A DNA stretch of 13,700 nucleotides, taken from the UHGV virus genome UHGV-1812412; one strand, written 5' to 3'. Both the position numbers and the translations under genes were made by a program. The stretch comes from a virus. Below are positions 661 through 13,700 of the stretch, in pieces (position 1 is the first letter of the stretch; each line of letters starts with the position of its first letter). A model generated the notes under the pieces. It searched no databases and had not been told where the DNA came from. It was given only the letters and a program-made list of their open reading frames with translations.

Positions 661-768
661 TGTCCACTCTGTGGATTTGAGTTCTACTCAAACCTGCATA
701 GCAGGCACTAATATTGTGATCTAAATCAATAAGTTAGCCTGACCGGATAAACTCCAGGCAAGAAAAAA

Positions 769-793: not shown

Positions 794-824
794 CTTCTCC
801 GGTATCCTTTTGATGCGGGGCAAA

Positions 825-870
825 ACCTGCTAACAAAAATCAACCTCTCGCGAGACTAATGTTAGCAGGT
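825..870. repeat. Perfect 11-bp inverted repeat (ACCTGCTAACA / TGTTAGCAGGT) with a 24-nt spacer that contains the palindrome TCTCGCGAGA
   Basis: Read directly: 825-835 is the exact reverse complement of 860-870; nested palindrome at 845-854. Confidence 0.7.
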
Positions 871-1227
871 TGCCGGAAGGTAAGTCAACTCCGGCCTATA
901 AACCTTAAAGCGACTATAAAATCGCCCCGCCAATTGTGATGATCCGACCTTTGAGGCGGGTCCGGTGCCCAGGGGGTGCAGTGATGCACAAACCAGGCAA
1001 CGATAAACAGGCTAACAGTGATAGCGGCGCTCAATCAGCGCACTAAATCCTAACCAGTCCGGGAAAGAGGCTGGCTCTATCGACCGCTCATGCACGGGAC
1101 AATGCATACCTGATAAAGGATTCTCACAAGGGACCAATCGCGAGAAAAGAAGTGGAAAGGGGCTGATTTGTGGTGTATCACTACGGCCTCAAAAGAACAC
1201 TATTGTCTTTTTTAAGCCGGACCGTGA

Positions 1228-1686
1228 TTAGCCTCTCCCCACATTTGACCAATATTTGATTGCACCGATCAAATCATCATAGTGGCGCATGGCATCATTG
1301 AAGCCTTTATAGCTTGCCCATTGTGGGGAAACCTTGTTATTGCTGAATTGCCCACTAATCAGGATAGTCTCCAAAATGTCGGCGTATCGCTTGCCAATTC
1401 GCTTTCTGACGGCCTCAGAGCTCCCACCCTTTACGATTGCATTAATCAGGGCTTTTGTGTGTCTCAGGCTCTCATAGAGCATTGCAGCGTGGGCAGATTC
1501 CATAAAGGAGCGCTTAGGCAGATCACCCCACCCCTCAGAATGAATTGCTGCCAGTGTGGCGTAATTCAGGCCGCTATAGTGCTTTCCGTCATCCCAGCCA
1601 ACCGCTACACCTTCCATCTGTGAGAGCTCTTTATGCAGCTTATCCATCATGCGCTTGTCTATGGTGCAACGGACTTTCGGACTCAT
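1228..1686 (-). CDS. Hypothetical phage-associated protein, 152 aa
   Basis: Intact ORF; its ATG (1686..1684) overlaps the stop of the upstream gene in an ATGA arrangement (translational coupling); GGAGA 7 nt upstream. No family recognised. Confidence 0.55.
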   Translation of the reverse strand: MSPKVRCTIDKRMMDKLHKELSQMEGVAVGWDDGKHYSGLNYATLAAIHSEGWGDLPKRSFMESAHAAMLYESLRHTKALINAIVKGGSSEAVRKRIGKRYADILETILISGQFSNNKVSPQWASYKGFNDAMRHYDDLIGAIKYWSNVGRG

Positions 1687-2513
1687 TTGTTGATCTCCGT
1701 GATGTCATCGAGCAACATGTTGGCCTTATCAATCATCGTTTCGTGGAACTCATTCGACACAACAGACTTATCACCTGCGGCAATCTTTCCAGCAGCCTCT
1801 CCCTGTGCATATTCCCCGCGATGCTTAGCCCTGGTTGATTTCGTAGCAGCGTTGCCAGCGTTGCTACCCTCTTTAGCACTATTAACAGCACCCTTTTGCT
1901 GTGTTTTATTCACCTTCTTACTGTTAGTGAAAACTCCGGCATTTTCGACCATCTTCACCTTGAAGGTGCGGAATTCTTCAAAAGTGCAATCAATAGTGAT
2001 GCAGTCACCAGAGGAAGAGCTACGCTTAACTTCACATTTCGTCATGATGAAGTTCTCAAGGAGTCCGGCATCTTCACTTACCAGGCTAACAAGCTGGCGC
2101 TTGTCTCTCATTTCTATAAGTGCCTGAACAGCGGCGGCAGGGCGCATAGATTCACGGGGATTATCTGGATCAGTGTTCCGGTCGATGTAGTTCTCTTTCC
2201 GGATGATATGAGGGGAAGAGGTAATAATGCCCGTAAAGCTGACAGATTTATCTTTAATGACGGCATGGTCTGACATGGTGGTGCCATCCTCGACCGCATA
2301 GCTCGATTTCTCAACAGGGAACGAATAGCTGACATCAGAGATAGAGTCAAAGAAGATAGCCACATTATCGGTATAGTTGAAGCCATCCATTATATTTTTG
2401 TTTTGTGAATATCCCCCACACATAACAGTGAATGCAGGAGATCTCGACTCAGCTTGTTTTGCAGCTGTCAGAGCATCACTAGCCATAGTAAACATGCCTC
2501 CAAATTGGTCCAC
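1683..2513 (-). CDS. Hypothetical protein, 276 aa, with a Lys/Ala/Gly-rich low-complexity C-terminal region
   Basis: Intact ORF coupled to the downstream gene. The first ATG at 2513 has no usable Shine-Dalgarno; an in-frame ATG at 2486 has GGAGG 10 nt upstream and may be the true start. No family recognised. Confidence 0.55.
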   Translation of the reverse strand: MDQFGGMFTMASDALTAAKQAESRSPAFTVMCGGYSQNKNIMDGFNYTDNVAIFFDSISDVSYSFPVEKSSYAVEDGTTMSDHAVIKDKSVSFTGIITSSPHIIRKENYIDRNTDPDNPRESMRPAAAVQALIEMRDKRQLVSLVSEDAGLLENFIMTKCEVKRSSSSGDCITIDCTFEEFRTFKVKMVENAGVFTNSKKVNKTQQKGAVNSAKEGSNAGNAATKSTRAKHRGEYAQGEAAGKIAAGDKSVVSNEFHETMIDKANMLLDDITEINK

Positions 2514-2645
2514 TTCATGGATTTGGCTAAAGCCAAACCTGCAAAAGATGCAGGCAAAATAGAACTTATCGTTGCCCTGCTTAAAATCTGCAGAAAATAC
2601 AGGGCAGTTATTCGTTAGAATCGCTTATAGCTCTTCCCGAGAGCG

Positions 2646-2897
2646 TTATTTTGCAAAACGGTTATGGGCATTCAGGGCTTTTTTGCGGTCCTGGGCTTGT
2701 TTGCGTGCAATAAAATGTTCGAAAGTCTCGGCCCAGGTGCATTTATTATATTCACGGTACTTATGCATAGCCTGGCGGCTAACGTCATAGCAGGCGGCAA
2801 ATGTGGAGATACGCAGAAATTCCGGCAGATCCTCGTCATCGATATGGATAATATCAAAAGGCACGTCGTCACGGTCGCCGTATAAAACAATTTTCAT
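2646..2897 (-). CDS. Small protein, 83 aa, possible helix-turn-helix DNA-binding protein
   Basis: ORF track starts at a GTG at 2906; the in-frame ATG at 2897 has GAGGTG 6 nt upstream. Segment ISTFAACYDVSRQAMHKY resembles an HTH. Function not established. Confidence 0.5.
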   Translation of the reverse strand: MKIVLYGDRDDVPFDIIHIDDEDLPEFLRISTFAACYDVSRQAMHKYREYNKCTWAETFEHFIARKQAQDRKKALNAHNRFAK

Positions 2898-2931
2898 AAA
2901 AGACACCTCAAAAACTTAAGACGGGGATAAT

Positions 2932-2980
2932 AAAAAAGGGAAGAGGGAAAGACCTATCCCCGATCTCTCACCTCTTCCCT
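2932..2980 (-). terminator. Rho-independent terminator immediately downstream of the capsid-like gene
   Basis: 9-bp stem GGGAAGAGG (2938-2946) / CCTCTTCCC (2971-2979) with a 24-nt loop; A6 at 2932-2937 on + gives a U-tract after the hairpin on the - strand. T-rich on the + side too (2980-2994), so possibly bidirectional. Confidence 0.6.
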
Positions 2981-3010
2981 TTGCTTTTATTTGGCCTTCG
3001 AAGAAGGACC

Positions 3011-4054
3011 TTATTTAGCCTTGGCTTTTGCCAGAGCAGCGGCGGCGGAGTTACTAACACTCACTTTAACCACAACCTCAGGCATCATGTTCATGAAAGC
3101 ATAAGAGGATTCAATGAAGATTTCTCGTTTACCTCTGGACTCTTCCATATACATGAAAGCTTCACGTGCAGCGCCGTTTGCAAGCTTCAGGTTGCGAGCG
3201 CAAGGGCCGAAAAATTGAGTATAAACGCCCACCATATCGCCTAACGCATGTGGCTGGAATTGTGGGACCAGATAAGCAGTATTCTCTGGCAGACTATCCA
3301 TTTGCACCACACGCAGAGCTAAGCCCGGAATGCGGAAGGTCGGGAAGCCCGGCAGAATATCCTCAGGGAACATCAGACCTTTATCGGTAATATTCTGATT
3401 GCCGAACAACAGCACTTTACGGAGCAGTTCATCAGTCTGAATAGCGGCGAACACCTCAGCACGGCAGAACAGGGTGAAACCACGCAGAGCGCGAACGACA
3501 CCACGCTGTTTAACCTTGCTCAGTGCAACCAGGTCCTGCAGTTGTTTGAGAATATCTTGAGCTAGATCCATTTCAGAGGTGGACTGTTCCACGCCCAGCA
3601 GTTCGCACACATTCAGCTCTTTACCCTTGGTGAGGATAATTTTGTTCTCAAAGAGAGCAAGCTGGCGTGCTTCTTCGTGGGTCTGGCGTAAGCCTTCGCC
3701 CAGTTGAATAACACGACGAGCGGTTACAGACTCTAAATTCTCTTCGGAATCTTTGCCCGGAACACGGATACCTTGCCAGTCAGAAGGATAAATAGCACTT
3801 GATGCGGCAGTGAATGCCATATCACCCGTGCCCGTTTCACGCTCATCTGCGGTAATGGTCGCCATCTGTTCACCGTAGCGCGGATACTGACCGAAAGCGG
3901 TTTGTTTCACCTGGCGAACTTTGTCATATTCAAATTTAAAGGTATTGCACAGAGCAGTAGTGTTGAAGATATCCATTGCTGAAATAATCTGGTTATCCAG
4001 CGGGATGTCTTTAATCAAGCCACACAGATCGCGGACTTCGAATTCTTTTTTCAT
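3011..4054 (-). CDS. Putative phage major capsid protein (lambda gpE-like), 347 aa
   Basis: Long ORF; ATG at 4054 with GGAGG 6 nt upstream (ORF track begins at a TTG at 4060). N-terminal MDIFNTTALCNTFKFEYD and C-terminal IESSYAFMNMMPEVVVKVSV resemble lambda gpE (TTAQLL...KFKFD; MIQSAPLMLLADPDEFVSV) as recalled from memory, not search-verified. Followed by a strong terminator, as expected for a highly expressed capsid gene. Confidence 0.55.
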   Translation of the reverse strand: MKKEFEVRDLCGLIKDIPLDNQIISAMDIFNTTALCNTFKFEYDKVRQVKQTAFGQYPRYGEQMATITADERETGTGDMAFTAASSAIYPSDWQGIRVPGKDSEENLESVTARRVIQLGEGLRQTHEEARQLALFENKIILTKGKELNVCELLGVEQSTSEMDLAQDILKQLQDLVALSKVKQRGVVRALRGFTLFCRAEVFAAIQTDELLRKVLLFGNQNITDKGLMFPEDILPGFPTFRIPGLALRVVQMDSLPENTAYLVPQFQPHALGDMVGVYTQFFGPCARNLKLANGAAREAFMYMEESRGKREIFIESSYAFMNMMPEVVVKVSVSNSAAAALAKAKAK

Positions 4055-4065
4055 CTCCAACCTCC

Positions 4066-4401
4066 TTATTGTGCAACACGCAAATCGCCATTGCTGGCAG
4101 CGATAACAGCGGCTAAGCCTTCTTTATCCACGTAGGCCGGATTGATATAACAGCCCTTGTTGGCAACAACGATAAAAGCATCACCAACCTCAGCACGTTC
4201 TACAACCAGCAGCGGAGTTTTATCGGTGTGCGTTTCTTTAACGAAGGTCTCAACCTCGCCAGCCTCAGTCACCACAACAACAGTGCCAGCCGGAATCTCA
4301 GCTTTAACTTTGTTTTTAATTTCAACGTCGCGAATACTAAATTGCTCATCTGCGGCGTATGAAATGATGTGTCCGCGTGTGCGGATAGTCATATCTCTCA
4401 T
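4066..4401 (-). CDS. Putative head decoration / capsid accessory protein, 111 aa
   Basis: ORF ends 11 nt before the capsid start; AGGTGA 6 nt upstream of its ATG. Size and position directly upstream of the capsid gene fit a decoration or cement protein. Function is by context only. Confidence 0.45.
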   Translation of the reverse strand: MRDMTIRTRGHIISYAADEQFSIRDVEIKNKVKAEIPAGTVVVVTEAGEVETFVKETHTDKTPLLVVERAEVGDAFIVVANKGCYINPAYVDKEGLAAVIAASNGDLRVAQ

Positions 4402-5215
4402 TTGATCACCTGCGATTTAAATTAACTCCCCTCAAAGAGTTCCGGTATAACCTCTCAAACCACGACGCTCGGGCCGAAAAGTTATGCCGGAAATCTAAAG
4501 GGAAATTGATACAAGGAGAGGGAGATAGCCCCGCACCGTCCAAGCGGGGGCTATTCCATATGGGGAAAACCAACAACAGTTGGCTGATAGTTCACAGTAT
4601 GGGTTACTAGAGAGCACTATCACGAAAGACACTCCCCCGAATCAGTTCAGGCTGCGGTCACATCAGCGGGGAAATACCTTTCGGGATAGCTACCCACACA
4701 GAAAACCCGCAAAAGAAAACTGTGTGGATAACTAGCCCAATAGGAGAATTAATCGACCACTCAACGATGATCAGGGTAGTGTTATTTATAAGGCGGCACC
4801 GCTACCTGGTCGCCTTTACTTTGGAGGAAAATACGGCAAATCAAGATCTTCTCACAATGATATTGACGCCATACTGTATATTATATCAGTATTTACTCAC
4901 ATTGTCAACACCCTGATTATATAAATTCTAATAATTAGCGTAGTAACGGTATTTTCAGACCTCTATCAATCCCATCAATACGTCACCCCACCCTTTAGAT
5001 GCATACATCCGACCTACTTTGTAGGCTTGGCGTACTGCCAAGGTCGCAGCTATGCGACTCCTATCTATCACCACTTTATAAAGCTTGATAGATATCCGTT
5101 GATCAATATCAATGTTTTCCGGGGATTTACCCGGCTATAGTTCGAATCAAGGAAGGGGAGCATTGATAGCACCCAACCGAGCAAACAAATCAACTTCTCG
5201 CAAAAGGTTATAGAT

Positions 5216-5338
5216 ATGGGTATCAAGAACAGTGCCAGCGCATGGCAAAAGGCCAGGTTTCATCACCCACACATGGTTAAGGCAATTGAGGTGGTTGGAG
5301 TTTTAGCCCTGATGTTAGCTCTGTGTGTGGAGGTGTGA
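5216..5338 (+). CDS. Micro-ORF, 40 aa, hydrophobic C-terminus (MGIKNSASAWQKARFHHPHMVKAIEVVGVLALMLALCVEV)
   Basis: ATG preceded by AAAGG 8 nt upstream inside a 17-nt leader motif that is duplicated before the membrane protein gene; its stop is 1 nt before the next ATG. Confidence 0.25.
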   Translation: MGIKNSASAWQKARFHHPHMVKAIEVVGVLALMLALCVEV

Positions 5339-5339
5339 G

Positions 5340-5420
5340 ATGGGCAAAGGAGGCAAAGCATTTTTAATAGGTCTGGCAGTCTTAGATTTTGTATTAATCA
5401 TCATTGAGCGGAGTTTATGA
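5340..5420 (+). CDS. Micro-ORF, 26 aa, single hydrophobic helix (MGKGGKAFLIGLAVLDFVLIIIERSL)
   Basis: ATG at 5340 with GGAGG 6 nt upstream; its stop overlaps the ATG of the following HTH gene (ATGA at 5417-5420). Confidence 0.25.
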   Translation: MGKGGKAFLIGLAVLDFVLIIIERSL

Positions 5421-5677
5421 CGGGAACTAAAGATATTAAGAGACTGAGGGAAGAGCTGATAGCTGAAATTAAAGCGAAGGCAAAGCAAATGGAGATAGCC
5501 GCACAAATGGATGTAGCGGAACAGATGTACAAGATGGTTGAGGAGGGAACGCCACGACAGGTTATAGCAAAAACCTTCGGTGTGGGGATCGCCACCGTGC
5601 ACAGAAGGCTGAAAGCCTATGCCGACTACCACAATATCGAGAGAAAGGAGGATGGGAGATTTAAGAAGAATAAATAG
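5417..5677 (+). CDS. Small DNA-binding protein with resolvase/invertase-type helix-turn-helix, 86 aa
   Basis: Segment TPRQVIAKTFGVGIATVHRRLK matches the pattern of the Hin/Gin-type C-terminal HTH (PRQ-LA-FG-G-ST--R, recalled from memory); N-terminal half predicted coiled coil. No catalytic recombinase domain present. Confidence 0.65.
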   Translation: MTGTKDIKRLREELIAEIKAKAKQMEIAAQMDVAEQMYKMVEEGTPRQVIAKTFGVGIATVHRRLKAYADYHNIERKEDGRFKKNK

Positions 5678-5769
5678 TGTGAACAGTCCAATAGGTTAAG
5701 CTCTGGCTCATAGCCCTCGCCTCGAGGGTGTTATTAACTAAATTCAACTTCTCGCAAAGGGGTACCATT

Positions 5770-6291
5770 ATGTTATTTCAGAAAGATAAAGAATCAGAAA
5801 ACAAAAAGCTTTTTAAAGCAATAGTAAAAATGTTCTTTCAGTACACTGCAGCGTTTTTGATAGCCGGGCCTTGGTTAATGGCTATCTGTTTTTACCCTGC
5901 TACCTTGTTTATTGGCAGTAGCAAGTTCGGCGATGGCCCGTTTCATGTGGATATTGGTTTTATAGATTCTCTCCTGATCCGTCCTATAAATGCTGTTCTC
6001 AATGCTTTCTACTTCCCCACTAGTCTAGAGGGGTGGTCGGTAACCTGGGGTGTTTTAGGCTTAGCATATGTATATTGGTTGGTTGGCTTTTTGTGGGGTG
6101 CAATCTGTGCTCTCCTCGATATTGATACAGGATCAAGCCGTAGGAGTGGTGGTAATAATAGCGGAGCGGGTGTATATGCACACGTAGGTACCAGAGGGGT
6201 AAGTATCACCGCAGGTACCCGATTCGCTGGCGGCTGGCTGAGCATAGGCAAACGCGGCGTTAGTTGGAGAAAAAGCAAAAAACTGTTCTGA
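5770..6291 (+). CDS. Membrane protein, 173 aa from ATG 5770, with at least two hydrophobic helices and a Gly-rich basic tail containing a repeated G-x-R-G-V-S motif
   Basis: ORF track starts at a GTG at 5728; the ATG at 5770 has AAGGGG 7 nt upstream. Hydrophobic helices FFQYTAAFLIAGPWLMAICFYPATLFI and WGVLGLAYVYWLVGFLWGAICALL; tail has GTRGVS and GKRGVS. Terminator directly downstream. Confidence 0.6.
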   Translation: MLFQKDKESENKKLFKAIVKMFFQYTAAFLIAGPWLMAICFYPATLFIGSSKFGDGPFHVDIGFIDSLLIRPINAVLNAFYFPTSLEGWSVTWGVLGLAYVYWLVGFLWGAICALLDIDTGSSRRSGGNNSGAGVYAHVGTRGVSITAGTRFAGGWLSIGKRGVSWRKSKKLF

Positions 6292-6298
6292 CCTACCA

Positions 6299-6322
6299 GG
6301 GGGGCCATCACGGCCCCTTTTT
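6299..6322 (+). terminator. Rho-independent terminator after the membrane protein gene
   Basis: GGGGCC (6301-6306) / GGCCCC (6312-6317) stem with 5-nt loop, followed by TTTTT (6318-6322). Confidence 0.7.
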
Positions 6323-7636
6323 ATTTATCCCTCAATTAACCCCTATTTATCCCCTATTTAATGCCTATTTATTGATTTAATCCGTTTTATGCCACAACCG
6401 CCCGGTTGACAGAGTAAGAGAGAGGGTGTAACCCTTTTTCGTAATACCAATAAAATCAATAGCTTAGCTCAATTGGCCTTTTCTCTGTTTTTGTCAAATT
6501 TAACATACCCTCAAAAACTGCAAAATCTGGCTGCAAGATTATCTGCAGCTGGATTTCTTACACCTCAATTTGTGGTATCACCCTGACTAGTTTGTGCATA
6601 AAATGAACAGTTTTTAACATTTCCTCCTCACCTGGTAACCACACAAAAAGCTAAAAACGAGGCACAGATAATCTTAGAGGCCTGTTTTCTTGTTATCACT
6701 CTGGGAACGTCGTAGAAGTGATTTTGATGAAAGACGGCCTACCCTATTACACCCCCATTTTTTGTTATCACAATTGCATCCTGTGCGGTATATGACTATG
6801 TGCTGAAAGCGGTCTCAGGTGTTGGTGTCAGAAATATCCATTAGCGGTATTTGAGCTTATGGGTAACTCGTCTGAGGTGCCAGGCAGGCGCTCCCCTACC
6901 TCCCCTTTTTCTTCTAACAATTCTCAAATATCACACCACTGCCCACCACGTTGCTATTATGTTAATTCTTAAGCTTTGCTGTATGTTGTGCACATTATTT
7001 ATTCAGATGCATGTACGTAAATTCTGTGCCCACTGATCATGATTTTTAAATCAGATTTTGTAGTGCGCTTTATTAGTGTAGATAAGATCTATTATGTTAA
7101 ATGCAATTTTCCCAACCCTTCAAATCAATGACTTACATGTAAGCATGCACTAACACCCCACACAGCACATTAGACGTGTAGATGTCTATATCCCACATTT
7201 TTGATTGTTTTGTAGTCATTCCCCTGATCATTTAACCAGTATAGTTTGCTCTCTGCAGACCACAAAATCGGAATTTACATCTGATTAACATAATCTGTTA
7301 GCATGATCACCATTACCCACACAACAATAACCCCATGCAAGCCTCTTCAGGCAATTTATCGGCGTGTTGGTGTGAACAGTCTTTCATGTTCTTTATGTAT
7401 TCATGACTGCAAGGAATGTATTCATTGGCCTGTGTGGGGGAAGGATGGACTGCCTCAGGGGCCATACTTATGATGCCCGGTCAACATAGCTGTTGATAAA
7501 ATCAATGGGTGTTGATCTGCGTATTTCCCACACATGAGAGGAAATCAAAGCAAAGAGAGAGGAGAGAGGTTTGTTAGTCAAAATAGGTCAATTGACGGCT
7601 AATACAGAGTAAAAAATCAGATGCAATCACTCCCCC

Positions 7637-7819
7637 ACCTGTTGGGATTTCCCTCACCTGTATAAGAATACAGTCATACTTTCCCGTTATACGGTCATAC
7701 ACATGATGGAATAACCTGTTGGAATTTCCCACAGGTTCAACCATACATAAGCATTAACCTGTTGGAATTTCCTACTACTACCTGTCGGTATTTCCCACAG
7801 GTACCTGTTGGAATTTCCC
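7637..7819. repeat. Iteron array: five direct copies of a 17-mer ACCTGTYGGWATTTCCC
   Basis: Copies at 7637-7653, 7714-7730, 7757-7772, 7780-7796, 7803-7819; the last three are exactly 23 bp apart. Two copies are followed by the inverse ACAGGT. Partial copies of the ATTTCCCACA core at 7522-7534 and 8321-8333. Confidence 0.75.
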
Positions 7820-7911
7820 ACACTAATAGATAAAGAGAATAGATTAATAAAAAGATACCCCCCTAACCCCCCAGGGGGAATGGGGAGGGATCAGAGAGTG
7901 GGGAAGGTTTT

Positions 7912-8014
7912 CTAGATGTACGTAATTGGTACACTTAAAGGTGGATAATATGAGGCTAGATGTACGTAATTGGTACACTTAGAATATTCTAGATGTACGT
8001 AATTGGTACACTTA
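7912..8014. repeat. Three identical 26-bp direct repeats CTAGATGTACGTAATTGGTACACTTA, each with an internal dyad TGTAC-N7-GTACA
   Basis: Copies at 7912-7937, 7956-7981, 7989-8014; start-to-start spacing 44 and 33 bp (multiples of about 11, same helical face). A near DnaA box GGTGGATAA lies at 7940-7948. Confidence 0.8.
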
Positions 8015-8339
8015 AATCACATAAGTTATTGAGTTTATTAGAAAAAGTGATTCACCTATATATACTACTGATTCGCCTCCGCTCATCATTAGTATGGTGT
8101 AACTGATTCATGCTTCGCTTACGCTCACATTCATCTACTTACACCCCCTTATCTGAATTGAACATTCCCGTCCAATCCAGCTAAGAGAATTGATTGAACA
8201 TTACCTAACATCCGTTAGCTAACATTCTAATCAATTAACTACTTAATCACTTCCACACCTTCCGGTGGTGCCAAGTGTCCTGGCATGGTGGGAAAAGATT
8301 CTGCCGTTTTAGGTAGAATTGATTTCCCACAAATAGTAA

Positions 8340-8660
8340 GTGTCGGCCCTTCAATGTCACTCTCCTATGAGGGGGAGAGATGACGGGCCTCCTGTGTGGG
8401 TGAGTATCGGAGCAGTCTGTGAAGTATGAGCAGGCTGTGAGATACGCTACTGTATATCTGCGTAGAACAGCCTCCGCTGTTTACGCTCTTTGTGTGGGTC
8501 CGGCGAATGCGACAGCATGAGGCCCACATGTGGACCGCTGCCGAAAGCTTGCCAGCGCCGGAAGGAGGCGGCAAAGAGTCTCCCGCGCGGTTGTAGGTCC
8601 GCGCCGGACTTTAACTTACAGTTAAACCCTTCGGGCTTGTGCGGGTGCACGCACACATAT
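8340..8660. other. GC-rich, hairpin-dense non-coding island, candidate structured RNA or DNA processing site
   Basis: Sharp rise in GC relative to AT-rich flanks. Local stems include TCTCC/GGAGA (8361-8379), GCGCGG/CCGCGC (8585-8604), TTTAAC/GTTAAA (8609-8625) and GTGCG/CGCAC (8639-8654). The only ORFs are two overlapping Arg/Pro/Ser-rich minus-strand frames without RBS. Confidence 0.3.
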
Positions 8661-8843
8661 ATATAAAGGATACACTCATAAATCGAAAATAAGCGCGATT
8701 TTAGCGCCTACAGCGAGATAAACTATACTCCCTAGTGTAATTGCATTACCTGATGCTTAAATCGCGTTGTAGGGCCTCTCATGAGGTTTGAGTTTAACAC
8801 CCTCCAAAGTTTTAACAAAAAGTGCTCTCCCTCCATTGTGGGC

Positions 8844-9013
8844 CATTGACAATCTTATTGCATAAATGCTATAAGTTATTCTGATTTTGACACGGTAGGG
8901 GCCATTAATAATGCTTACCCCTTTGCTGTGGACTTGCTTGTGTCTGCTGTGCAGGCTATGGCACCTATAGCTCGCCTAAATGATAATGATTCCTATTGAC
9001 AATTGGTTGTCAA
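8844..9013 (+). promoter_or_regulatory. Operator-like 9-bp palindromes ATTGACAAT overlapping -35-like TTGACA hexamers; candidate tandem promoters
   Basis: ATTGACAAT at 8844-8852 and 8995-9003; the second is part of an 18-bp dyad TTGACAA-TTGG-TTGTCAA (8996-9013). Possible promoters: TTGACA 8846-8851 + 18 nt + TATAAG 8870-8875; TTGACA 8996-9001 + 17 nt + TAAGAT 9019-9024. Confidence 0.4.
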
Positions 9014-9059
9014 TATGATAAGATTATAGATAGTGGGAGAAACAGATCCGGAGGTCAAC

Positions 9060-9209
9060 GTGGAACTGAGCGACGCTATAGCGATCATCAACCTGGCTGT
9101 ACTGTGGTGCGGTGTTGCCTACATAGCCGGAGTAACTGCAATCGACAACCTTGAAGAAAAAATGATAGATAAATACAAAAAGATTGTTGACAATCTCGCA
9201 AATAGCTGA
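9060..9209 (+). CDS. Small hydrophobic protein, 49 aa, GTG start
   Basis: GGAGG at 9050-9054, 5 nt before the GTG at 9060; product MELSDAIAIINLAVLWCGVAYIAGVTAIDNLEEKMIDKYKKIVDNLANS has one predicted transmembrane helix. Not in the supplied ORF track (below the length cutoff). Confidence 0.35.
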   Translation: MELSDAIAIINLAVLWCGVAYIAGVTAIDNLEEKMIDKYKKIVDNLANS

Positions 9210-9215
9210 TAAAAT
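9182..9215 (+). promoter_or_regulatory. Sigma70-type promoter with an operator dyad over the -35
   Basis: -35 TTGACA (9187-9192), 17-nt spacer, -10 TAAAAT (9210-9215); dyad GATTGT-TG-ACAATC (9182-9195) overlaps the -35 and shares the TTGACAAT core with the upstream palindromes. Confidence 0.5.
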
Positions 9216-9263
9216 ATAAATCATAGGGTAATTCTCAGCATGTGAATTTTCCTTAAACAGACT

Positions 9264-9295
9264 AGCGGGGCTTGTCTTGAGTCCCGTTTCTTTTT
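9264..9295 (+). terminator. Promoter-proximal hairpin plus U-tract (attenuator or 3' end of a short RNA)
   Basis: CGGGGC (9266-9271) pairs with GTCCCG (9281-9286), with one G-U pair, around a 9-nt loop, followed by TTTCTTTTT (9287-9295). Sits about 50 nt after the predicted start site and 44 nt before the next ATG. Confidence 0.5.
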
Positions 9296-9338
9296 AAACC
9301 TACATCGCACAGGCGGTGAGCCAACAGGAGATTGAATC

Positions 9339-9548
9339 ATGGCTAAAACTGGACCGATCAGCCAGCTGGTAGACTGGACTACTGACGAAATCGTCGAGAA
9401 CGTGCTTAAAGGTAACTTTCGAAAAACTTCTGTTTATGCATTTATTCGAAAACACAAAGGAGAATATCCACACATTGAAGCGGCAATAGAAAAACTTAAC
9501 TTTATTAAACTTGAGCGCCAGCTGGAAAGATATAAACACCTACTTTGA
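9339..9548 (+). CDS. Small protein, 69 aa, possibly DNA-binding
   Basis: AGGAG at 9326-9330, 8 nt before the ATG; first gene after the promoter/attenuator. No family recognised. Confidence 0.6.
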   Translation: MAKTGPISQLVDWTTDEIVENVLKGNFRKTSVYAFIRKHKGEYPHIEAAIEKLNFIKLERQLERYKHLL

Positions 9549-9584
9549 TAAAAGGTAACCGTAACCCGGTAAGAGGTAAACATT

Positions 9585-10454
9585 ATGAATATTAAGTCTG
9601 TTTTTAATATAACTTTAAATGATGATCCTAGTATCCTTTTGCTGCCTATGCTCATAAACAAATCTGGACTATTAAAAAAAGGCGACGCAAGGGATATTTA
9701 TATTTATATGTGGAATATTTACTATCTCAACGCTAAAAAAGAGGCCGCCAAGGTGTTCAGTAAGAAGACTAAAGGAAGAAGCCTCAGTCAGGATATGAAA
9801 GATTCCATAAGAAAAGAATGTTTTGCAATTAATGATAAAGATTCCTGTGTGGAAATCTCTTATAAGGATATAGAGGAAAGAGTAGGAATATTACGACCAC
9901 ACGCAGTAAGGGCAATTAAAAAGCTGGAATCTGAAGGAATTATCACCTGCCTTAAAAAAGGCAATAAGCATAACCCTTATGCATCATGGCAAATTAATGT
10001 CGGAATCTTTGAAATGATGGAAAGAGTAGGGATTGAAAACCTCATTGGGTGGGATCTCTTAAAACCATATTGGAAGAAAGAACAGGAAGCAGCCGGAAGA
10101 GGGGAGGGGGATAAAGCCCCGCAAGAAGCCCCAAAACAGGCCGCACAGCAAGCTAAAAAGGCCGAGGTGGTGCAGTTCCCTTCTACGAAAGATAAGAGCG
10201 TCAGAATCGAGCGTAGCTCTCATCCTGAAAGTGTGACAACGTCACCTGTTAAGACAAACAATGAAGGGCCAGTGAAAGAGATACCCAAAATTATAGACAT
10301 TTCTTCTTTTATGGCAGATGAGGAAGATATGCAAGATGAGTGGTGGACACCTCCAGAAAATAATGATTATGGTTATGATCCTTATGGCTATGATGAAGAT
10401 GAATATAGCCCGTTTGAAGATGAATATATAAATGATTCCGCTATCCCTTATTAA
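9585..10454 (+). CDS. Winged-helix DNA-binding protein, 289 aa, with a Lys/Ala/Gln-rich linker and an acidic, aromatic C-terminal tail; candidate replication initiator or regulator
   Basis: AAGAGGT 7 nt before the ATG. Segment ISYKDIEERVGILRPHAVRAIKKLESEGIITC has the classic winged-helix pattern seen in replication initiators and MarR-like regulators; C-terminus DEEDMQDEWWTPPENNDYGYDPYGYDEDEYSPFEDEY. Function inferred. Confidence 0.75.
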   Translation: MNIKSVFNITLNDDPSILLLPMLINKSGLLKKGDARDIYIYMWNIYYLNAKKEAAKVFSKKTKGRSLSQDMKDSIRKECFAINDKDSCVEISYKDIEERVGILRPHAVRAIKKLESEGIITCLKKGNKHNPYASWQINVGIFEMMERVGIENLIGWDLLKPYWKKEQEAAGRGEGDKAPQEAPKQAAQQAKKAEVVQFPSTKDKSVRIERSSHPESVTTSPVKTNNEGPVKEIPKIIDISSFMADEEDMQDEWWTPPENNDYGYDPYGYDEDEYSPFEDEYINDSAIPY

Positions 10455-10542
10455 TACCCCCAAATAAACTAAATAAACTAAACATAGAATTACTAGAACT
10501 AGATTGATTGCCCTGATCTTTTAAACGTTCGGAGAATTAATC

Positions 10543-11028
10543 ATGTTCAAATCTGATCTTTCTGATTCCCAATTTGAAAAACTGGTAGCACTGCAGAAAT
10601 ATCTCCCCAGTGATGATCAACCAACACGACAGGCCAAACACTTATTAGTCGAGGGCTTTACCCCTGAATTCGTAGCGGAATATACAGGCGTTAAACTTGA
10701 GAAAGTCCAAAAACTATATAATGAGTCCTGGAATCCACGGTGTCGAGTTCCCCTCAGTGTCTATAACGAAATAGATAGAGATAAAAATGTCTTCGAAGAT
10801 CGCCGCCGCAAATCTCTTTTAATGTGGAATTGCGGGATGAATATTGAAGAGATAGCAAAAGAATTAAAAGTAACCTGCTTTCATATTTGGGGCTTGTTGA
10901 GTGAAATCCTGCCACGTAAGGAGCTTAATCAACGTTTGCCTAAGCCCGGTAGTCGTGCTTATCGCGAATTTATATTCATCTACCGCCGCCATAGCAATAA
11001 AGTCCGGAAAGCAATGCAGCGCAAATAG
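10543..11028 (+). CDS. Hypothetical protein, 161 aa, with two HTH-like segments and a basic C-terminus
   Basis: GGAGA 7 nt before the ATG; HTH-like segments FTPEFVAEYTGVKLEKVQKLY and MNIEEIAKELKVTCFHIWGLL. Could be a small terminase subunit-like or regulatory protein; not resolved. Confidence 0.7.
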   Translation: MFKSDLSDSQFEKLVALQKYLPSDDQPTRQAKHLLVEGFTPEFVAEYTGVKLEKVQKLYNESWNPRCRVPLSVYNEIDRDKNVFEDRRRKSLLMWNCGMNIEEIAKELKVTCFHIWGLLSEILPRKELNQRLPKPGSRAYREFIFIYRRHSNKVRKAMQRK

Positions 11029-11116
11029 CTTATAGCCTTCACATATGCCGCAAGTTATTGATTCTGCCGTCCGGTAAATATGCCGGATGGCTCATATAAA
11101 TTTTAAGGAATTCCAA

Positions 11117-11560
11117 ATGTCTCAAATCGCTAAATTACTATCCCAGGTTATCAAAGCTATCGACGCTGAAGATTCAAAAGTTCGCCAGGATCTTTTAGAT
11201 GGCAAGTTTACCAATACTCTGGCATTTACCCGTGACAAAGAGCACTTCTTAGAGCACAAACATCCCGCCTTTGTTGAATGCAAGTCCGCTAATGGTGATG
11301 TTTTCTATGTCGATTTGGTGGTTATGGCTATGCGCCTGTGGATGATTCAGGACCTTATGCGCCAACACGGTGATGATCCTCTTATCAGCATGTGGAACAG
11401 CGCCCAGGATGGCTTTGTGATTGCTGCCTTATCCAAATCCATGATTGAGGCAGAAGGCGCAAGCCTTCAAAACATGGCAGATCTCTTTGAAATAAGCGTA
11501 GGAATGATGCAGACCATGCTGCAGGCGGTGAAGCCTCTCAAGCTGGTTAACCTTGAATAA
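11117..11560 (+). CDS. Hypothetical protein, 147 aa
   Basis: ORF track begins at an ATG at 11087 with no RBS; the in-frame ATG at 11117 has AAGGAA 6 nt upstream. Followed by a terminator. Confidence 0.65.
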   Translation: MSQIAKLLSQVIKAIDAEDSKVRQDLLDGKFTNTLAFTRDKEHFLEHKHPAFVECKSANGDVFYVDLVVMAMRLWMIQDLMRQHGDDPLISMWNSAQDGFVIAALSKSMIEAEGASLQNMADLFEISVGMMQTMLQAVKPLKLVNLE

Positions 11561-11571
11561 TTGATTAATAA

Positions 11572-11606
11572 GCACCCTCAAAAAATGGGGGTGCCTTTAT
11601 TTATCT
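11572..11606 (+). terminator. Rho-independent terminator
   Basis: GCACCC (11572-11577) / GGGTGC (11589-11594) stem followed by the T-rich run CTTTATTTATCTT. Confidence 0.6.
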
Positions 11607-11638
11607 TACTTTTCACGTTTATCTAAAAGGATATGCCT

Positions 11639-12022
11639 ATGAATATTGAAGAAATGATAGTTGAATTCGATGATGGTGATTTCCTGGAAGATGGGGAGTT
11701 TAAATACTCCCGTTTTAAACAGGCGTTATTTAGCAGCGATGATAAACCCCACGTTAGTGATCTAAATGACGATGATTTATGTCGCTGGGTATGCACCCGC
11801 TTATATGAGGATGGAAAATATACAGGCCAAAACTTTCCAAATCTCTATTTCAAAGCACAAACATTTGAGGAAGGGCAAAGAGTGAAAAACCTGGTCGATA
11901 AAATGCTGTCAGCCGGATATTTGCATAAAGAATTATTAAATCCTAAAGCTGAAAGCAAGCGCCATTATATTTTTGTGTGGACTATTGGCGATAAGTGTCC
12001 ACTAAGACGCAAAGGCAAATGA
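11639..12022 (+). CDS. Acidic protein, 127 aa, in the position of a tail assembly chaperone
   Basis: ATG at 11639 has AAGGA 8 nt upstream (the ATG at 11633 is too close to it). Product is strongly acidic at the N-terminus; sits two genes upstream of the tape measure gene, as gpG-like chaperones do. Inferred from position and composition. Confidence 0.55.
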   Translation: MNIEEMIVEFDDGDFLEDGEFKYSRFKQALFSSDDKPHVSDLNDDDLCRWVCTRLYEDGKYTGQNFPNLYFKAQTFEEGQRVKNLVDKMLSAGYLHKELLNPKAESKRHYIFVWTIGDKCPLRRKGK

Positions 12023-12023
12023 T

Positions 12024-12209
12024 ATGAATACCTACGAAAAGATTTATCAAAAATTAAAAAGTGATAACAATGCTCCCGTCATCAAGGGCGGGGCTTCTTC
12101 CTCTGGTGACCTCTCAATCGAAGAGCTTGCGGAGAAATATAATATTGATAAAGAGGCCCTGAAAAGGGCTATTTCATTATCAAAATCTTTAAGACAGGGC
12201 GAGGTGTAA
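12024..12209 (+). CDS. Small protein, 61 aa, immediately upstream of the tape measure gene
   Basis: ATG 1 nt after the stop of the preceding gene (TGA-t-ATG); ends 3 nt before the tape measure ATG. Could be independent or the extension part of a frameshifted chaperone. Confidence 0.45.
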   Translation: MNTYEKIYQKLKSDNNAPVIKGGASSSGDLSIEELAEKYNIDKEALKRAISLSKSLRQGEV

Positions 12210-12212
12210 GAG

Positions 12213-13700
12213 ATGGCAATGAAGGAAGTCGCCAGACTAACAAACGTTATTTACTGGGATTCTGATAAATCCAGCTGGCGAAAAGAAGTTAAACGGCTTG
12301 AGGATTATAAAAAATCCTGGAAGAAAGCCACCGACGATATAGCTAAAGCTGATTTTAAATCTAATCAGGCTGTGCTCAGAACACAAAGAACACGCGCTAA
12401 GGTGGAAGAGCAGATTGCCAGAGCTCAGAGGAAACAACAGGAAGCACAGAAGAAACAACGTGCTCAGGCTGTCAGCCGTCTGACCGGGGGCAACAATGCC
12501 GAACTTAACTCTATGCGCAAGTTCTATCAGCAGCAAGCCAGAGAGGCCGCCAGACAACAAAAACTGTTAGATCGTAGTGTTGGAGATGTTCAGCACAGAA
12601 AAGCACGTGTAGGGGCCAACAGTGCACGAATTAGCGGCATGTTTGATGGCTCTATCGTCTCCCAGTTCCAGGGGCGCATTCAAAGAGTTAATGCTGATTA
12701 TGCTAAAGGGGCTATAAACCTGCAGACCTATAATCAGAGGATGGCTCGGCTCAGAGCTGAAATGAAGATGGCAACAGCAGAGGCCGGAAAATTTCAGAGC
12801 AGACTGGATAAACTGGCATCAGGTGCCAGCAAGGTGCATGACAACCTGGGCAAAATCAACTCCACACTAGGCAAGATAGCCATTGGCCTTACTGCCGCTG
12901 GCTGGGGTGTTCAGCGTGCTGTTAGTGGTGCTATGGGTAGCCTTGCAGATCGCAACAGTGCCTACTTCGGTTTAATGGCTCAGAACAAGGATGATAAAGC
13001 CAAGACTGATCAGCAGATGGCTTTTATCAAGAACACAGCCTACACCTATGGGATGGATGAGCGGGAGATGCAAGGGGGCTACATGCGCTTTGCTGCAGCT
13101 ACTCCCACCATGAAGGAATCTGATAAGCAGGCTCTTTTTGAGGCTATGGCTATTAAAGGTCGCTCAGTGGGTGCTACTGGCGAGCAACAGAACAGGGCGC
13201 TTGTTGCGGTCCAACAAATGGCTTCAAAGGGAAAAGTTATGGCAGAAGAGCTGCGGGGCCAACTGTCAGAAGCCTTTGCAGGCTCACAACAGGATTTTCA
13301 ACAGGCCGCTATTGATGCCGGAATCATCAAGAATGCCCAGGAATTCGATAAAGCCCTTAAAGATGGCAAAATCACCCTGGACAAACTTCTTCCTTCTCTG
13401 GTGAAAATCTGGGGTGCAGCAAAAGAAACTAAAGCTTTTGCTGAATCCATGAAACAACCGGAAGTAGCACTGCAGCGCATGAAAAACAGCTTTAACGAGC
13501 TGGCGATTCAGTTTATGGGTGTTGTGGATCCTGCGGATGGCGTTATTAGCTTATCTGAATCTCTGATCTCCATCTTCGAAGACCTCACCACTGATATGGA
13601 CGGCAGCGGGAGCGCGGCAAAACAGTTCGGTGAGGCAGTCGGGGCTGCCATGCGTGAGATCATGTATTGGGTAGGCTTCGCTAAGGGATATATTGAGGTC
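12213..13700 (+). CDS. Partial CDS (3' end outside window): N-terminal part of a phage tail tape measure protein
   Basis: ATG at 12213 with GAGGTG 7 nt upstream; frame stays open to the window edge (496 codons). Missing from the supplied ORF track because it has no stop in the window. Coiled-coil N-terminus, then NRALVAVQQMASKGKVMAEELRGQLSEAF, which matches the conserved tape-measure domain pattern. Confidence 0.8.
   Translation, partial: MAMKEVARLTNVIYWDSDKSSWRKEVKRLEDYKKSWKKATDDIAKADFKSNQAVLRTQRTRAKVEEQIARAQRKQQEAQKKQRAQAVSRLTGGNNAELNSMRKFYQQQAREAARQQKLLDRSVGDVQHRKARVGANSARISGMFDGSIVSQFQGRIQRVNADYAKGAINLQTYNQRMARLRAEMKMATAEAGKFQSRLDKLASGASKVHDNLGKINSTLGKIAIGLTAAGWGVQRAVSGAMGSLADRNSAYFGLMAQNKDDKAKTDQQMAFIKNTAYTYGMDEREMQGGYMRFAAATPTMKESDKQALFEAMAIKGRSVGATGEQQNRALVAVQQMASKGKVMAEELRGQLSEAFAGSQQDFQQAAIDAGIIKNAQEFDKALKDGKITLDKLLPSLVKIWGAAKETKAFAESMKQPEVALQRMKNSFNELAIQFMGVVDPADGVISLSESLISIFEDLTTDMDGSGSAAKQFGEAVGAAMREIMYWVGFAKGYIEV

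What the first reader, a model, noticed from the sequence alone, without database searches (positions are those of the whole stretch)
9187..9295. Strong promoter followed about 50 nt later by an intrinsic terminator, upstream of the 69-aa gene
A near-consensus promoter (TTGACA-17-TAAAAT) would start transcription near 9222, and a hairpin plus U-tract ends at 9295, before the RBS of the first gene. This gives either an attenuator requiring antitermination to express the operon, or a discrete RNA of about 75 nt.
Basis: partly seen in the sequence, partly recalled or inferred. Interest (0 to 1): 0.5.

Follow-up and report, generated by a model that had tools for sequence, protein, structure and literature searches.

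The report
Small RNA gene in replication-operon leader
The promoter and terminator are real and conserved, and probably make a roughly 74-base RNA at the front of the replication genes of a small phage-like E. coli plasmid; in sister plasmids this RNA matches the start site of a gene just after rep, but in this plasmid that long match is missing.

Summary
P2 is TTGACA-17-TAAAAT with an extended -10 TG (9187-9215). A hairpin (9264-9288, about -13.7 kcal/mol) and a U-tract ending at 9295 follow it. The window is a complete 13.7-kb phage-like E. coli plasmid. P2 sits in the last codons of a 49-aa membrane-protein gene and is the last promoter before the o69-rep operon, so the terminator must act as an attenuator. 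All 43 relatives retrieved independently of the promoter sequence keep the unit. Two further plasmids carry an unrelated 96-nt leader that again ends in a terminator.

The predicted ~74-nt RNA has a 5' hairpin, a single-stranded linker and a terminator. In relatives, 12-20 nt of the linker region are complementary to the ribosome-binding site of a small acidic ORF just after rep. The two sites change together: 7 of 22 pairs show compensatory changes and cognate pairs score best. This holds although the genes between them are shuffled.

It therefore works like phage P1's c4 RNA, a same-operon antisense regulator, but it matches no Rfam family.

In this window the acidic ORF is absent as a separate gene, possibly fused to rep. 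Only 9-nt matches remain, at rep codons 4-6 and at one Shine-Dalgarno site. The RNA's target here is unresolved. No expression data were available.

The parts
8991..9024 (+). Upstream promoter P1 (TTGACA-17-TAAGAT, 8996-9024), overlapped by the palindrome TCCTATTGACAA/TTGTCAATATGA (8991-9018), a likely operator. Its transcripts run through orf49 and the leader to the same terminator.
   Evidence: inverted repeat I11. Invariant in the alignment.
9060..9209 (+). orf49: a GTG-initiated 49-aa gene (Shine-Dalgarno GGAGG at 9050-9054) coding for a small protein with one hydrophobic helix. P2's -35 lies in its codons Val-Asp-Asn, and its TGA stop supplies the extended -10 TG.
   Evidence: Annotated in RefSeq relatives. 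The substitutions among relatives are synonymous or conservative. No family hit.
9187..9215 (+). Promoter P2: -35 TTGACA (9187-9192), 17-nt spacer, TG (9207-9208), -10 TAAAAT (9210-9215).
   Evidence: The hexamers are invariant across relatives (TATAAT in L009/L010) while the spacer varies.
9222..9295 (+). Predicted leader RNA of about 74 nt. The start is inferred from the -10 position; the end is the U-tract.
   Evidence: fold, z = -3.2. (same architecture in every variant). No Rfam family.
9225..9253 (+). Hairpin 1, the 5' stem-loop of the RNA. Its 3' arm carries the anti-Shine-Dalgarno-like UUCCUU.
   Evidence: In L012/L021 the upper stem is replaced by CACUA/UAGUG and a hairpin is still formed.
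9249..9265 (+). Seed region: the 3' arm of hairpin 1 plus the single-stranded linker (UUCCUUAAACAGACUAG). This is the segment that co-varies with the downstream target in relatives.
   Evidence: Unpaired probabilities.
9264..9295 (+). Intrinsic terminator: stem-loop 9264-9288 and U-tract TTTCTTTTT (9287-9295). It would end the small RNA and the orf49 mRNA, and attenuate transcription into o69-rep.
   Evidence: Three homologous stem variants have nearly equal stability (-13.4 to -13.7 kcal/mol). An unrelated terminator occupies the same place in L022 and CP134895.
9339..9548 (+). o69: the first gene after the terminator, a 69-aa all-helical protein of unknown function.
   Evidence: family found only in E. 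coli/Shigella contigs of 13-14 kb. (pLDDT 89). (no informative structural match).
9585..10454 (+). rep: a 289-aa winged-helix replication initiator (lambda O-like) with an acidic C-terminal tail ending in NDSAIPY.
   Evidence: (phrog_391 and phrog_678). Tail.
9595..9603 (+). Candidate target in this window: AGTCTGTTT in rep codons 4-6, complementary to leader bases 9255-9263 (9 bp, about -10 to -11 kcal/mol). Weakly supported.
   Evidence: (14 of 2000 shuffles). (3.9% of background 50-nt windows hold a 9-mer). (this seed occurs only with this rep type)..
11102..11110 (+). Second 9-nt complement, TTTAAGGAA: the Shine-Dalgarno region in front of the ATG at 11117 (the 147-aa form of the next gene). 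Possibly just Shine-Dalgarno/anti-Shine-Dalgarno similarity.
   Evidence: (28 of 2000 shuffles).

Best explanation
P2 and the terminator together form the gene for a small RNA of about 74 nt. The gene is embedded in the leader of the replication operon of a 13.7-kb phage-like plasmid.

Shown from sequence:
- The promoter sits in the last codons of a 49-aa gene.
- The RNA would have a 5' hairpin, a single-stranded linker and an intrinsic terminator.
- There is no room or signal for another promoter before o69-rep, so rep can be transcribed only by read-through. The terminator is therefore also an attenuator.

Shown by comparison:
- In sister plasmids the 3' arm of hairpin 1 plus the linker is complementary, over 12-20 nt, to the Shine-Dalgarno region of a small acidic ORF immediately after rep, 1.2-1.8 kb downstream on the same strand.
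- The leader and that site change together across five or six types.
- One of those types has an unrelated leader, whose 9-nt match lies over the start codon instead.

Inferred:
- The abundant terminated RNA, made in proportion to plasmid copy number, pairs with that ribosome-binding site in trans, or in cis on read-through mRNA.
- Pairing blocks translation of a replication accessory protein.
- This would give negative feedback on copy number and type-specific incompatibility, in the way c4 RNA acts on icd/ant in phage P1.

In this window's lineage the acidic ORF is not a separate gene. Its tail motif is on Rep and the long complementarity is gone. The RNA may act on rep itself through 9 nt at codons 4-6, or on sibling plasmids, since it keeps 12 nt of complementarity to their site. 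It may also survive mainly as the attenuator and as the terminator of orf49.
For: - Promoter and terminator are present and conserved, and the hexamers are invariant while the spacer varies.
- Every leader variant folds as a 5' hairpin, linker and terminator. The terminator stems differ in sequence but not in stability.
- L022 and CP134895 have a non-homologous 96-nt leader that again ends in a terminator.
- No promoter-like site lies on the + strand between 9216 and 10232.
- Leader-target complementarity reaches 19 nt perfect (L008, L009, L018-20), 18 (L013/14), 16 (L021), 20 (L025) and 12 plus 5 of 7 (L002-7, L023/24). In L022 it is 9 nt over the AUG, 15 of 18 when extended.
- No shuffled leader out of 2000 reached the observed match for L009, L013 or L021. 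For L002 and L015, 4 and 6 of 2000 did.
- Cognate pairs beat non-cognate pairs in the cross-matrix.
- In the pair count, 93.4% of cells are paired and 7 of 22 pairs changed on both sides. No shuffle out of 500 reached this, and slid controls gave 36-64%.
- Compensatory single-base indels occur: L013 versus L021, and the UUU/UUUU leader with the AAA/AAAA target.
- An A-to-G change in the L040/43/45 target gives a G-U pair with the leader.
- Seed and target stay matched although the o69, rep and acidic-ORF alleles between them are reshuffled.
- In the positive control L018, the target is the top hit of a whole-element duplex scan.
Against: - There are no expression data. The transcription start site, termination efficiency and RNA stability are predictions.
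- In the window itself no target stands out. The 9-nt matches are near chance once multiple sites are allowed for: 3.9% of background windows hold one, and 2 of 16 translation-initiation regions do.
- The covariation rests on five or six types that are not phylogenetically independent, and on an alignment I anchored by hand.
- The L022 match alone is weak (66 of 2000 shuffles).
- The mismatches in the B1 and L015 duplexes are not G-U pairs, so a DNA-level inverted repeat is not formally excluded.
- The function of the acidic ORF is unknown, so the link to copy-number control is inferred.
Confidence: 0.6

Rival explanations
1. Plain attenuator or insulator. The terminator only throttles transcription from the strong P1 and P2 into o69-rep to keep Rep low. 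The short RNA is an inert by-product.
For: Read-through is required for rep expression. In this window no convincing target exists. Terminator stability is held nearly constant across variants.
Against: It does not explain why the linker co-varies with the ribosome-binding site of the acidic ORF across reshuffled modules. It also does not explain why an unrelated leader again matches that ORF's start codon.
Confidence: 0.2
2. The hairpin is simply the terminator of the 49-aa gene transcribed from P1. P2 is a promoter-like sequence created by coding constraints and is not used.
For: The -35 lies in conserved codons (Val-Asp-Asn) of orf49. The terminator lies 55 nt after its stop codon. The terminator is retained in the fold of the long P1 transcript.
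Against: The -10 and its TG lie at and after the stop codon, so no amino-acid sequence constrains them, yet they are invariant or become TATAAT. The spacer, which is coding, varies freely. Even if P2 were silent, the seed would still sit in the 3' UTR of the orf49 mRNA and could act after processing.
Confidence: 0.07
3. The leader-target complementarity is a DNA-level inverted repeat flanking the o69-rep module. It could be recombination or inversion sites, or two binding sites for one protein, rather than an RNA duplex.
For: Perfect 16-20-bp inverted repeats that stay identical could reflect recombination sites. The element encodes an 86-aa protein with a resolvase-type HTH_7 motif. Most mismatches are not G-U pairs.
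Against: No relative shows the module inverted: the operon had the same gene order and orientation in every locus where I inspected it. No recombinase catalytic domain was found. One arm always covers the Shine-Dalgarno site or AUG of the acidic ORF, and the other always lies in the unpaired part of a promoter-terminator RNA, even in the non-homologous L022 type. One variant has a G-U-compatible change.
Confidence: 0.05
4. A lambda PR'-tR'-style unit. A constitutive promoter makes a short terminated RNA until a Q-like or other processive antiterminator, from the element or a helper phage, lets RNA polymerase read into the operon, which ends in tail genes.
For: The layout (strong promoter, short transcript, terminator, long operon that includes a tape-measure gene) resembles late-operon control. 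The element lacks terminase and portal genes and may depend on a helper phage. The initially transcribed AUAGGG is conserved.
Against: No Q-, N- or other antiterminator-like protein was detected in the 18 ORFs I scanned with PHROGs, Pfam or NCBIfam. The first genes after the terminator are replication genes needed in the plasmid state. This model does not explain the seed-target covariation.
Confidence: 0.05
5. Type I toxin-antitoxin pair. The 49-aa hydrophobic protein is a toxin and the small RNA is its antitoxin.
For: A small single-helix membrane protein under a strong promoter lies next to a small-RNA gene.
Against: The RNA has at most 6 nt of complementarity to the orf49 translation-initiation region. 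It is on the same strand, downstream of the ORF.
Confidence: 0.03

Closest known systems
c4 antisense RNA of phages P1 and P7 (immI operon: c4-icd-ant)
   Same: Both are small RNAs encoded upstream of, and on the same strand as, their target in the same operon. Both pair with the ribosome-binding region of a small downstream ORF. In both, the RNA and its target differ together between related elements and so define specificity types. (P1 background from PMC8198154, which cites Citron and Schuster 1990. P1/P7 heteroimmunity is from my own knowledge.)
   Different: There is no sequence or structure homology: no Rfam hit, including the C4 family. Here the 3' end would be set by an intrinsic terminator and the 5' end by the RNA's own promoter, not by processing. 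The target lies behind a replication gene rather than in front of an antirepressor. In this window the target is missing.
CI RNA of satellite phage P4 and CA RNA of phage-plasmid N15
   Same: These are leader-derived small RNAs of a satellite and a phage-plasmid that control expression of the operon they head. The leader is coupled to premature termination. (PMC3632133, which cites Ravin et al. 1999.)
   Different: Those RNAs belong to the C4/IsrK structural family, act by promoting transcription termination, and are processed. None of this is shown here, and the family match was tested and not met.
Antisense copy-number control RNAs of plasmids (R1 CopA, ColE1 RNA I, pT181 RNA I/II, ctRNAs)
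   Same: These are constitutively made RNAs of about 70-100 nt with a stem-loop and a terminator. Their dose follows copy number, they inhibit expression of replication functions, and their sequence sets the incompatibility type (own knowledge).
   Different: Those RNAs are transcribed from the opposite strand of the target they overlap. Here the RNA is on the same strand, 1.2-1.8 kb from its target. No antisense promoter or terminator is present at the leader.
3'-UTR-derived small RNAs with their own promoter inside the upstream coding sequence (for example MicL, DapZ), and leader- or attenuator-derived trans-acting RNAs (for example Listeria SreA, Sinorhizobium rnTrpL)
   Same: The promoter lies inside the upstream coding sequence and the terminator is shared with that mRNA. 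A terminated leader doubles as a trans-acting regulator (own knowledge).
   Different: Those are chromosomal, Hfq-linked regulators of unlinked genes. Here the target is in the operon that the leader itself precedes, on a mobile element. Hfq dependence is untested.

Membership tests
C4 antisense RNA family (P1/P7 c4, P4 CI, N15 CA; Rfam) | Sequence and structure match to the family covariance model | tested here: not met
   cmscan of the whole window at E<=1 and of 9150-9350 at E<=10 gave no C4 hit. The best local hit was mmgR at 15 bits against a gathering score of 41.
C4 antisense RNA family (P1/P7 c4, P4 CI, N15 CA; Rfam) | Encoded upstream of its target, on the same strand and in the same operon, and complementary to the ribosome-binding region of a downstream ORF | tested here: inconclusive
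   Met in relatives: 12-20 nt over the Shine-Dalgarno site of the acidic ORF, or 9 nt over its AUG in L022, with covariation. In the window only 9-nt matches exist.
C4 antisense RNA family (P1/P7 c4, P4 CI, N15 CA; Rfam) | Mature RNA produced by processing of a longer leader transcript | not testable with these tools
   The sequence instead predicts a dedicated promoter and an intrinsic terminator as the two ends.
Regulated transcription attenuator (leader terminator with an antiterminator alternative) | Promoter, then an intrinsic terminator before the first gene, with no other promoter in between | tested here: met
   Only 43 nt separate the U-tract from the ATG at 9339.
Regulated transcription attenuator (leader terminator with an antiterminator alternative) | A mutually exclusive antiterminator structure, leader peptide, or ligand- or protein-binding element | tested here: not met
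   The minimum-free-energy and centroid folds of the 75-nt, 124-nt and 266-nt transcripts all keep the terminator. There is no conserved leader ORF and no riboswitch or leader family.
cis-encoded plasmid antisense RNA (ctRNA/CopA/RNA I type) | Transcribed from the strand opposite its target and overlapping it | tested here: not met
   No promoter-like site lies on the minus strand within 9222-9345. The reverse strand folds no better than shuffles (z = +0.6) and has no U-tract.
Type I 3'-UTR-derived small RNA | Own promoter inside the upstream coding sequence, and a terminator shared with that mRNA | tested here: met
   The -35 lies in orf49 codons and the stop codon provides the extended -10 TG. 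A single terminator follows both. All of this is at sequence level only.
Type I 3'-UTR-derived small RNA | Hfq-dependent action on trans-encoded mRNAs | not testable with these tools
   Only the generic features are visible: an AU-rich linker, a GC-rich hairpin and a U-tail.
Lambda-type late promoter with a Q antiterminator (PR'-tR') | A Q-like antiterminator gene in the element | tested here: not met
   No such family was found among the 18 ORFs of the window that I scanned with PHROGs, Pfam or NCBIfam. A helper-encoded factor cannot be excluded.
Type I toxin-antitoxin | Complementarity between the small RNA and the toxin mRNA | tested here: not met
   The longest complement to the orf49 translation-initiation region is 6 nt.

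The most novel reading that the evidence does not exclude
The leader RNAs form an undescribed family of specificity determinants (copy-number, incompatibility or immunity types) in a previously uncharacterised family of miniature phage-like plasmids of E. coli. Seed and target co-evolve as matched types. In this window's lineage the self-target was lost when the acidic module became part of Rep. The RNA would then either have been re-aimed at the rep start region (9 nt at codons 4-6), or persist as a weapon that silences the acidic ORF of competing sibling plasmids, to which it keeps a perfect 12-nt match that includes the Shine-Dalgarno site.
Probability: 0.3. Interest if true: 0.7.

Novelty: new variant of a known kind. 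Interest (0 to 1): 0.55.

Why it matters
If true, this is an unannotated regulatory RNA that controls the replication module of a widespread but undescribed family of 13-14-kb capsid- and tail-gene-bearing plasmids in E. coli and Shigella, which may be phage satellites.

It would be a second, independently evolved example of P1 c4-type logic: a sense-strand leader RNA that represses a gene further down its own operon. Unlike c4, it would be built from a dedicated promoter and an intrinsic terminator that also attenuates the operon.

The matched seed-target types give a ready-made natural experiment on how incompatibility or immunity specificities diversify under recombination. The system is small enough to test quickly with reporters and compensatory mutations.

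In practice, the RNA and the 49-aa gene are missing or inconsistently annotated in the public records of these plasmids.

Tried and rejected
- Rfam, whole window and local scan: no family at the site.
- tRNA/tmRNA search: none.
- Antisense RNA on the minus strand: no promoter, no terminator, and a fold no better than shuffles.
- Antiterminator alternative: not found in the 75-, 124- or 266-nt transcripts.
- Conserved leader peptide: the ATG-TGA at 9241-9246 is not conserved.
- The hairpin-1 loop as a second seed. An 11-12-nt complement lies in the tail-completion gene (window 1274-1284, minus strand) and recurs in relatives. The window's loop has changed while that site has not, so there is no covariation and I treat it as chance.
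- Whole-element RNAduplex scans in the window and the other type-A elements: no shared stand-out target.
- Relatives outside the family. The 69-aa protein and the capsid protein found nothing in GTDB species genomes or IMG/VR. The phage collection holds no DNA match. The leader occurs only in this plasmid family.
- o69 as an antiterminator or repressor: a confident helical model (pLDDT 89) but no significant PDB fold match and no family hits.
- RNAalifold on the leaders alone gave little covariation, only 2 pairs. The MAFFT alignment is disturbed by indels, so I relied on per-sequence folds.
- Literature searches did not find a description of this plasmid family.

Full report
**1. The observation**

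TTGACA lies at 9187-9192 and TAAAAT at 9210-9215, separated by 17 nt. TG at 9207-9208 gives an extended -10, so 11 of 12 consensus positions match. A stem-loop at 9264-9288 is followed by TTTCTTTTT ending at 9295. The stem is worth -13.7 kcal/mol. A transcript from about 9222 to 9295 is 74 nt and folds into two hairpins (-22.6 kcal/mol, z = -3.2).

The promoter match alone is not strong statistical evidence. A site scoring at least 11/12 turns up somewhere in 23% of shuffled windows, although two such sites, as seen here, occur in only 3%. Conservation makes the unit credible (section 3).

**2. Context**

The window is a complete circular element. The tape-measure ORF runs off the end at 13700 and continues at base 1. 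The window aligns end to end with circular E. coli plasmids of 13.2-13.7 kb. It is not in the phage collection.

Genes on the + strand, in order:
- P1 (8996-9024), overlapped by a palindrome
- orf49 (9060-9209), a one-helix membrane protein
- P2, the leader and the terminator
- o69 (9339-9548)
- a lambda-O-like winged-helix Rep (9585-10454)
- four small genes
- a tape-measure protein

The minus strand carries a capsid operon under a perfect consensus promoter. It includes a major head protein, a Dit-like protein and a tail-completion protein. A 2.7-kb gene-free stretch (6300-8990) holds iterons.

P2 therefore heads a replication operon, and its -35 lies inside the end of orf49. No other promoter-like site lies between the terminator and rep. 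Only 43 nt separate the U-tract from the o69 start codon. Expression of o69-rep must therefore come from read-through of this terminator by transcripts from P2, and from P1.

**3. Conservation**

I retrieved 43 related loci by DNA similarity or through the 69-aa protein, that is, independently of the promoter sequence. All of them carry the unit.
- Both hexamers are invariant, or improve to TATAAT in L009/L010. The coding spacer between them varies at many positions.
- The -10 lies after the orf49 stop codon, so protein coding does not explain its conservation.
- All homologous leaders are 72-76 nt and fold as a 5' hairpin, a linker and a terminator.
- The terminator stem exists in three sequence versions of almost identical stability, -13.4 to -13.7 kcal/mol.
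- In L012/L021 the upper stem of hairpin 1 is replaced by a different helix.
- In L022 and in E. coli plasmid CP134895 the whole leader after the promoter is replaced by an unrelated 96-nt sequence. That sequence again ends in a hairpin plus U-tract just before the o69 homologue. The architecture is what is conserved, not only the sequence.

**4. What the RNA pairs with**

I searched each element for complements of its own leader. This revealed long matches on the same strand, 1.2-1.8 kb downstream. In every case the match lies in the short spacer between rep and a small acidic ORF of 48-71 aa.
- In the homologous leader types it covers that ORF's Shine-Dalgarno sequence and ends a few bases before the AUG.
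- On the RNA side it involves the 3' arm of hairpin 1, which carries the anti-Shine-Dalgarno-like UUCCUU, together with the single-stranded linker.
- In L022 the match instead lies over the AUG, and on the RNA side it uses the linker before the terminator.

| Leader type | Loci | Complementarity |
|---|---|---|
| B2 | L008, L009, L018-20 | 19 nt perfect |
| C | L013/14 | 18 nt |
| C | L021 | 16 nt |
| C | L025 | 20 nt |
| C | L015 | 11 + 7 nt |
| B1 | L002-7, L023/24 | 12 nt + 5 of 7 |
| D (unrelated leader) | L022 | 9 nt perfect over the AUG, 15 of 18 extended |

Statistical checks:
- Shuffled leaders never reached the observed match in 2000 trials for L009, L013 or L021. They did so 4 and 6 times for L002 and L015, and 66 times for L022.
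- Cognate pairs give the longest match in the cross-matrix, apart from the L015 leader, which matches the L013 site by 12 nt against 11 for its own. They give the best duplex energy in most rows, and in L022 the margin is -24.9 against -8.9 to -17.1 kcal/mol.
- On a five-type alignment that I anchored by hand, 93.4% of cells are paired and 7 of 22 pairs changed on both sides. No shuffle out of 500 reached this, and slid registers gave 36-64%.
- Compensatory one-base indels occur, and one target change gives a G-U pair.
- The genes between leader and target are reshuffled among elements. The same o69, rep and acidic-ORF alleles occur with different seeds, yet seed and target always match. That pattern points to selection on the pairing rather than to shared descent alone.

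**5. Mechanism**

Shown: the unit has the anatomy of a self-contained small-RNA gene that is also the operon's only entry point, and in relatives its unpaired segment is antisense to a ribosome-binding site in the same operon.

Inferred: the terminated RNA, made from a constitutive-looking promoter in proportion to gene dosage, blocks translation of the acidic ORF. Alternatively it triggers cleavage of a duplex of up to 20 bp. Either effect would limit a replication function and define incompatibility types.

This is how phage P1's c4 RNA acts on icd/ant in its own operon (PMC8198154). It also resembles the leader RNAs of P4 and N15 (PMC3632133). Membership of that RNA family was tested and not met. 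The ends of the RNA would be set by a promoter and a terminator rather than by processing. It also differs from classical plasmid antisense RNAs, which are transcribed from the opposite strand. Here no antisense promoter or terminator exists.

I found no antiterminator structure and no antiterminator protein. I therefore regard read-through as constitutive leakage unless shown otherwise.

**6. The window's own variant**

The window belongs to leader type A, which has the seed AAACAGACUAG.
- In all 16 type-A loci the acidic ORF is absent as a separate gene.
- In those loci Rep is of a different type and ends in an acidic tail...EDEYINDSAIPY. This resembles the end of the separate acidic ORFs (...NDSDIPY...RDSAIPY). 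The similarity is short and weak.
- The long complementarity is therefore missing, and a duplex scan of the whole element shows no stand-out target.

What remains:
- 9 nt (9255-9263 against 9595-9603) lie in rep codons 4-6. Only 14 of 2000 shuffles reached this, the duplex is about -10 to -11 kcal/mol, and the seed is always linked to this rep type across two o69 alleles.
- 9 nt lie over the Shine-Dalgarno site in front of the ATG at 11117.
- A perfect 12-nt match exists to the B2-type target carried by sibling plasmids.

Against a background in which 3.9% of 50-nt windows contain a 9-mer match, the in-window matches are suggestive at best. In this plasmid the RNA may repress rep directly, act on competing relatives, or serve mainly as the attenuator and as the terminator of orf49.

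**7. Rivals**

| Rival | Main problem | Weight |
|---|---|---|
| Pure attenuator | Fits the window but not the covariation in relatives | 0.20 |
| Terminator of orf49 with an unused promoter | Contradicted by the conserved, non-coding -10 | 0.07 |
| DNA-level inverted repeat | No inverted arrangement seen in any relative; consistent placement on a ribosome-binding site and on an unpaired RNA segment | 0.05 |
| Q-type antitermination by a helper phage | No supporting gene; does not explain the covariation | 0.05 |
| Type I toxin-antitoxin | Only 6 nt of complementarity to orf49 | 0.03 |

**8. Verdict**

The feature is real and conserved. It is best read as a leader-encoded small RNA gene that also attenuates a plasmid replication operon. 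It is a new variant of a known kind of control.

The main limits are the lack of any expression data, the small number of independent seed types, and the missing target in the window itself.

Noticed in passing
window 1-13700 (whole): The window is a complete circular element of about 13.7 kb, found as 13.2-14.3-kb plasmids or contigs in E. coli and Shigella. It has a major head protein, a tail-completion/Neck1-like protein, a Dit-like protein and a tape-measure protein. I recognised no terminase, portal or tail-tube genes. It is absent from the phage collection, IMG/VR and GTDB species genomes, and MOB-suite gives it no replicon type. It may be an undescribed plasmid-borne phage satellite.
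   Followed up: partly
window 6300-8990, especially 7637-7825 and 7910-8016: A 2.7-kb stretch has no credible genes and is conserved in length among relatives. It contains five 23-nt repeats (ACCTGTTGGAATTTCCCACAGGT) and three 30-nt repeats (TTCTAGATGTACGTAATTGGTACACTTAAA). These are probably iterons, the origin, and partition or operator sites.
   Followed up: partly
window 4880-4908 (minus strand): A perfect consensus sigma-70 promoter (TTGACA-17-TATAAT with TG) points at the capsid operon. About 470 nt separate it from the first clear gene (4401). Diverging from it is an 86-aa HTH_7 protein gene (5417-5677). The arrangement looks like a switch region.
   Followed up: no
window 8991-9209: P1 is overlapped by a 12-nt-arm palindrome and drives a conserved 49-aa single-helix membrane protein that starts with GTG. 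P1 and P2 share similar -10 and initially transcribed sequences (TGATAAGATTATAGATAGTGGGAG against TGATAAAATATAAATCATAGGGTA). The replacement leader in L022 starts like the P1 5' UTR (AGTGGGAGAAA).
   Followed up: partly
window 10380-10454; L018:6196-6342; L022:6583-6771 (minus strand): Rep in this window, and the separate small acidic ORFs of relatives, end in D-S-(A/D)-I-P-Y after an acidic run. This is reminiscent of the DDDIPF tip of E. coli SSB (own knowledge). The acidic module is either a free-standing ORF or part of Rep.
   Followed up: partly
L022:7992-8100 (minus strand); L049:2660-2770: Two plasmids (a metagenome contig and E. coli pMB4926_4) keep P2 but have an unrelated three-hairpin leader of about 96 nt with its own terminator. 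The leader contains an internal TATAAT-like motif.
   Followed up: partly
window 11565-11680: A strong intrinsic terminator (11572-11594) lies in the middle of the + strand operon, between the 157-aa and 129-aa genes. Sub-threshold Rfam hits (S15 leader, rli40) overlap it. It may separate the replication part of the operon from the tail part.
   Followed up: no
NZ_CP043822.1 (39,610 bp): This record contains three tandem copies of the element. It is either a trimeric plasmid or an assembly concatemer.
   Followed up: no
window 1274-1284 (minus strand): CACTATGATGA in the tail-completion gene is complementary to the hairpin-1 loop of most relatives. It is unchanged in the window, whose loop differs, so I judge it coincidental.
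   Followed up: yes
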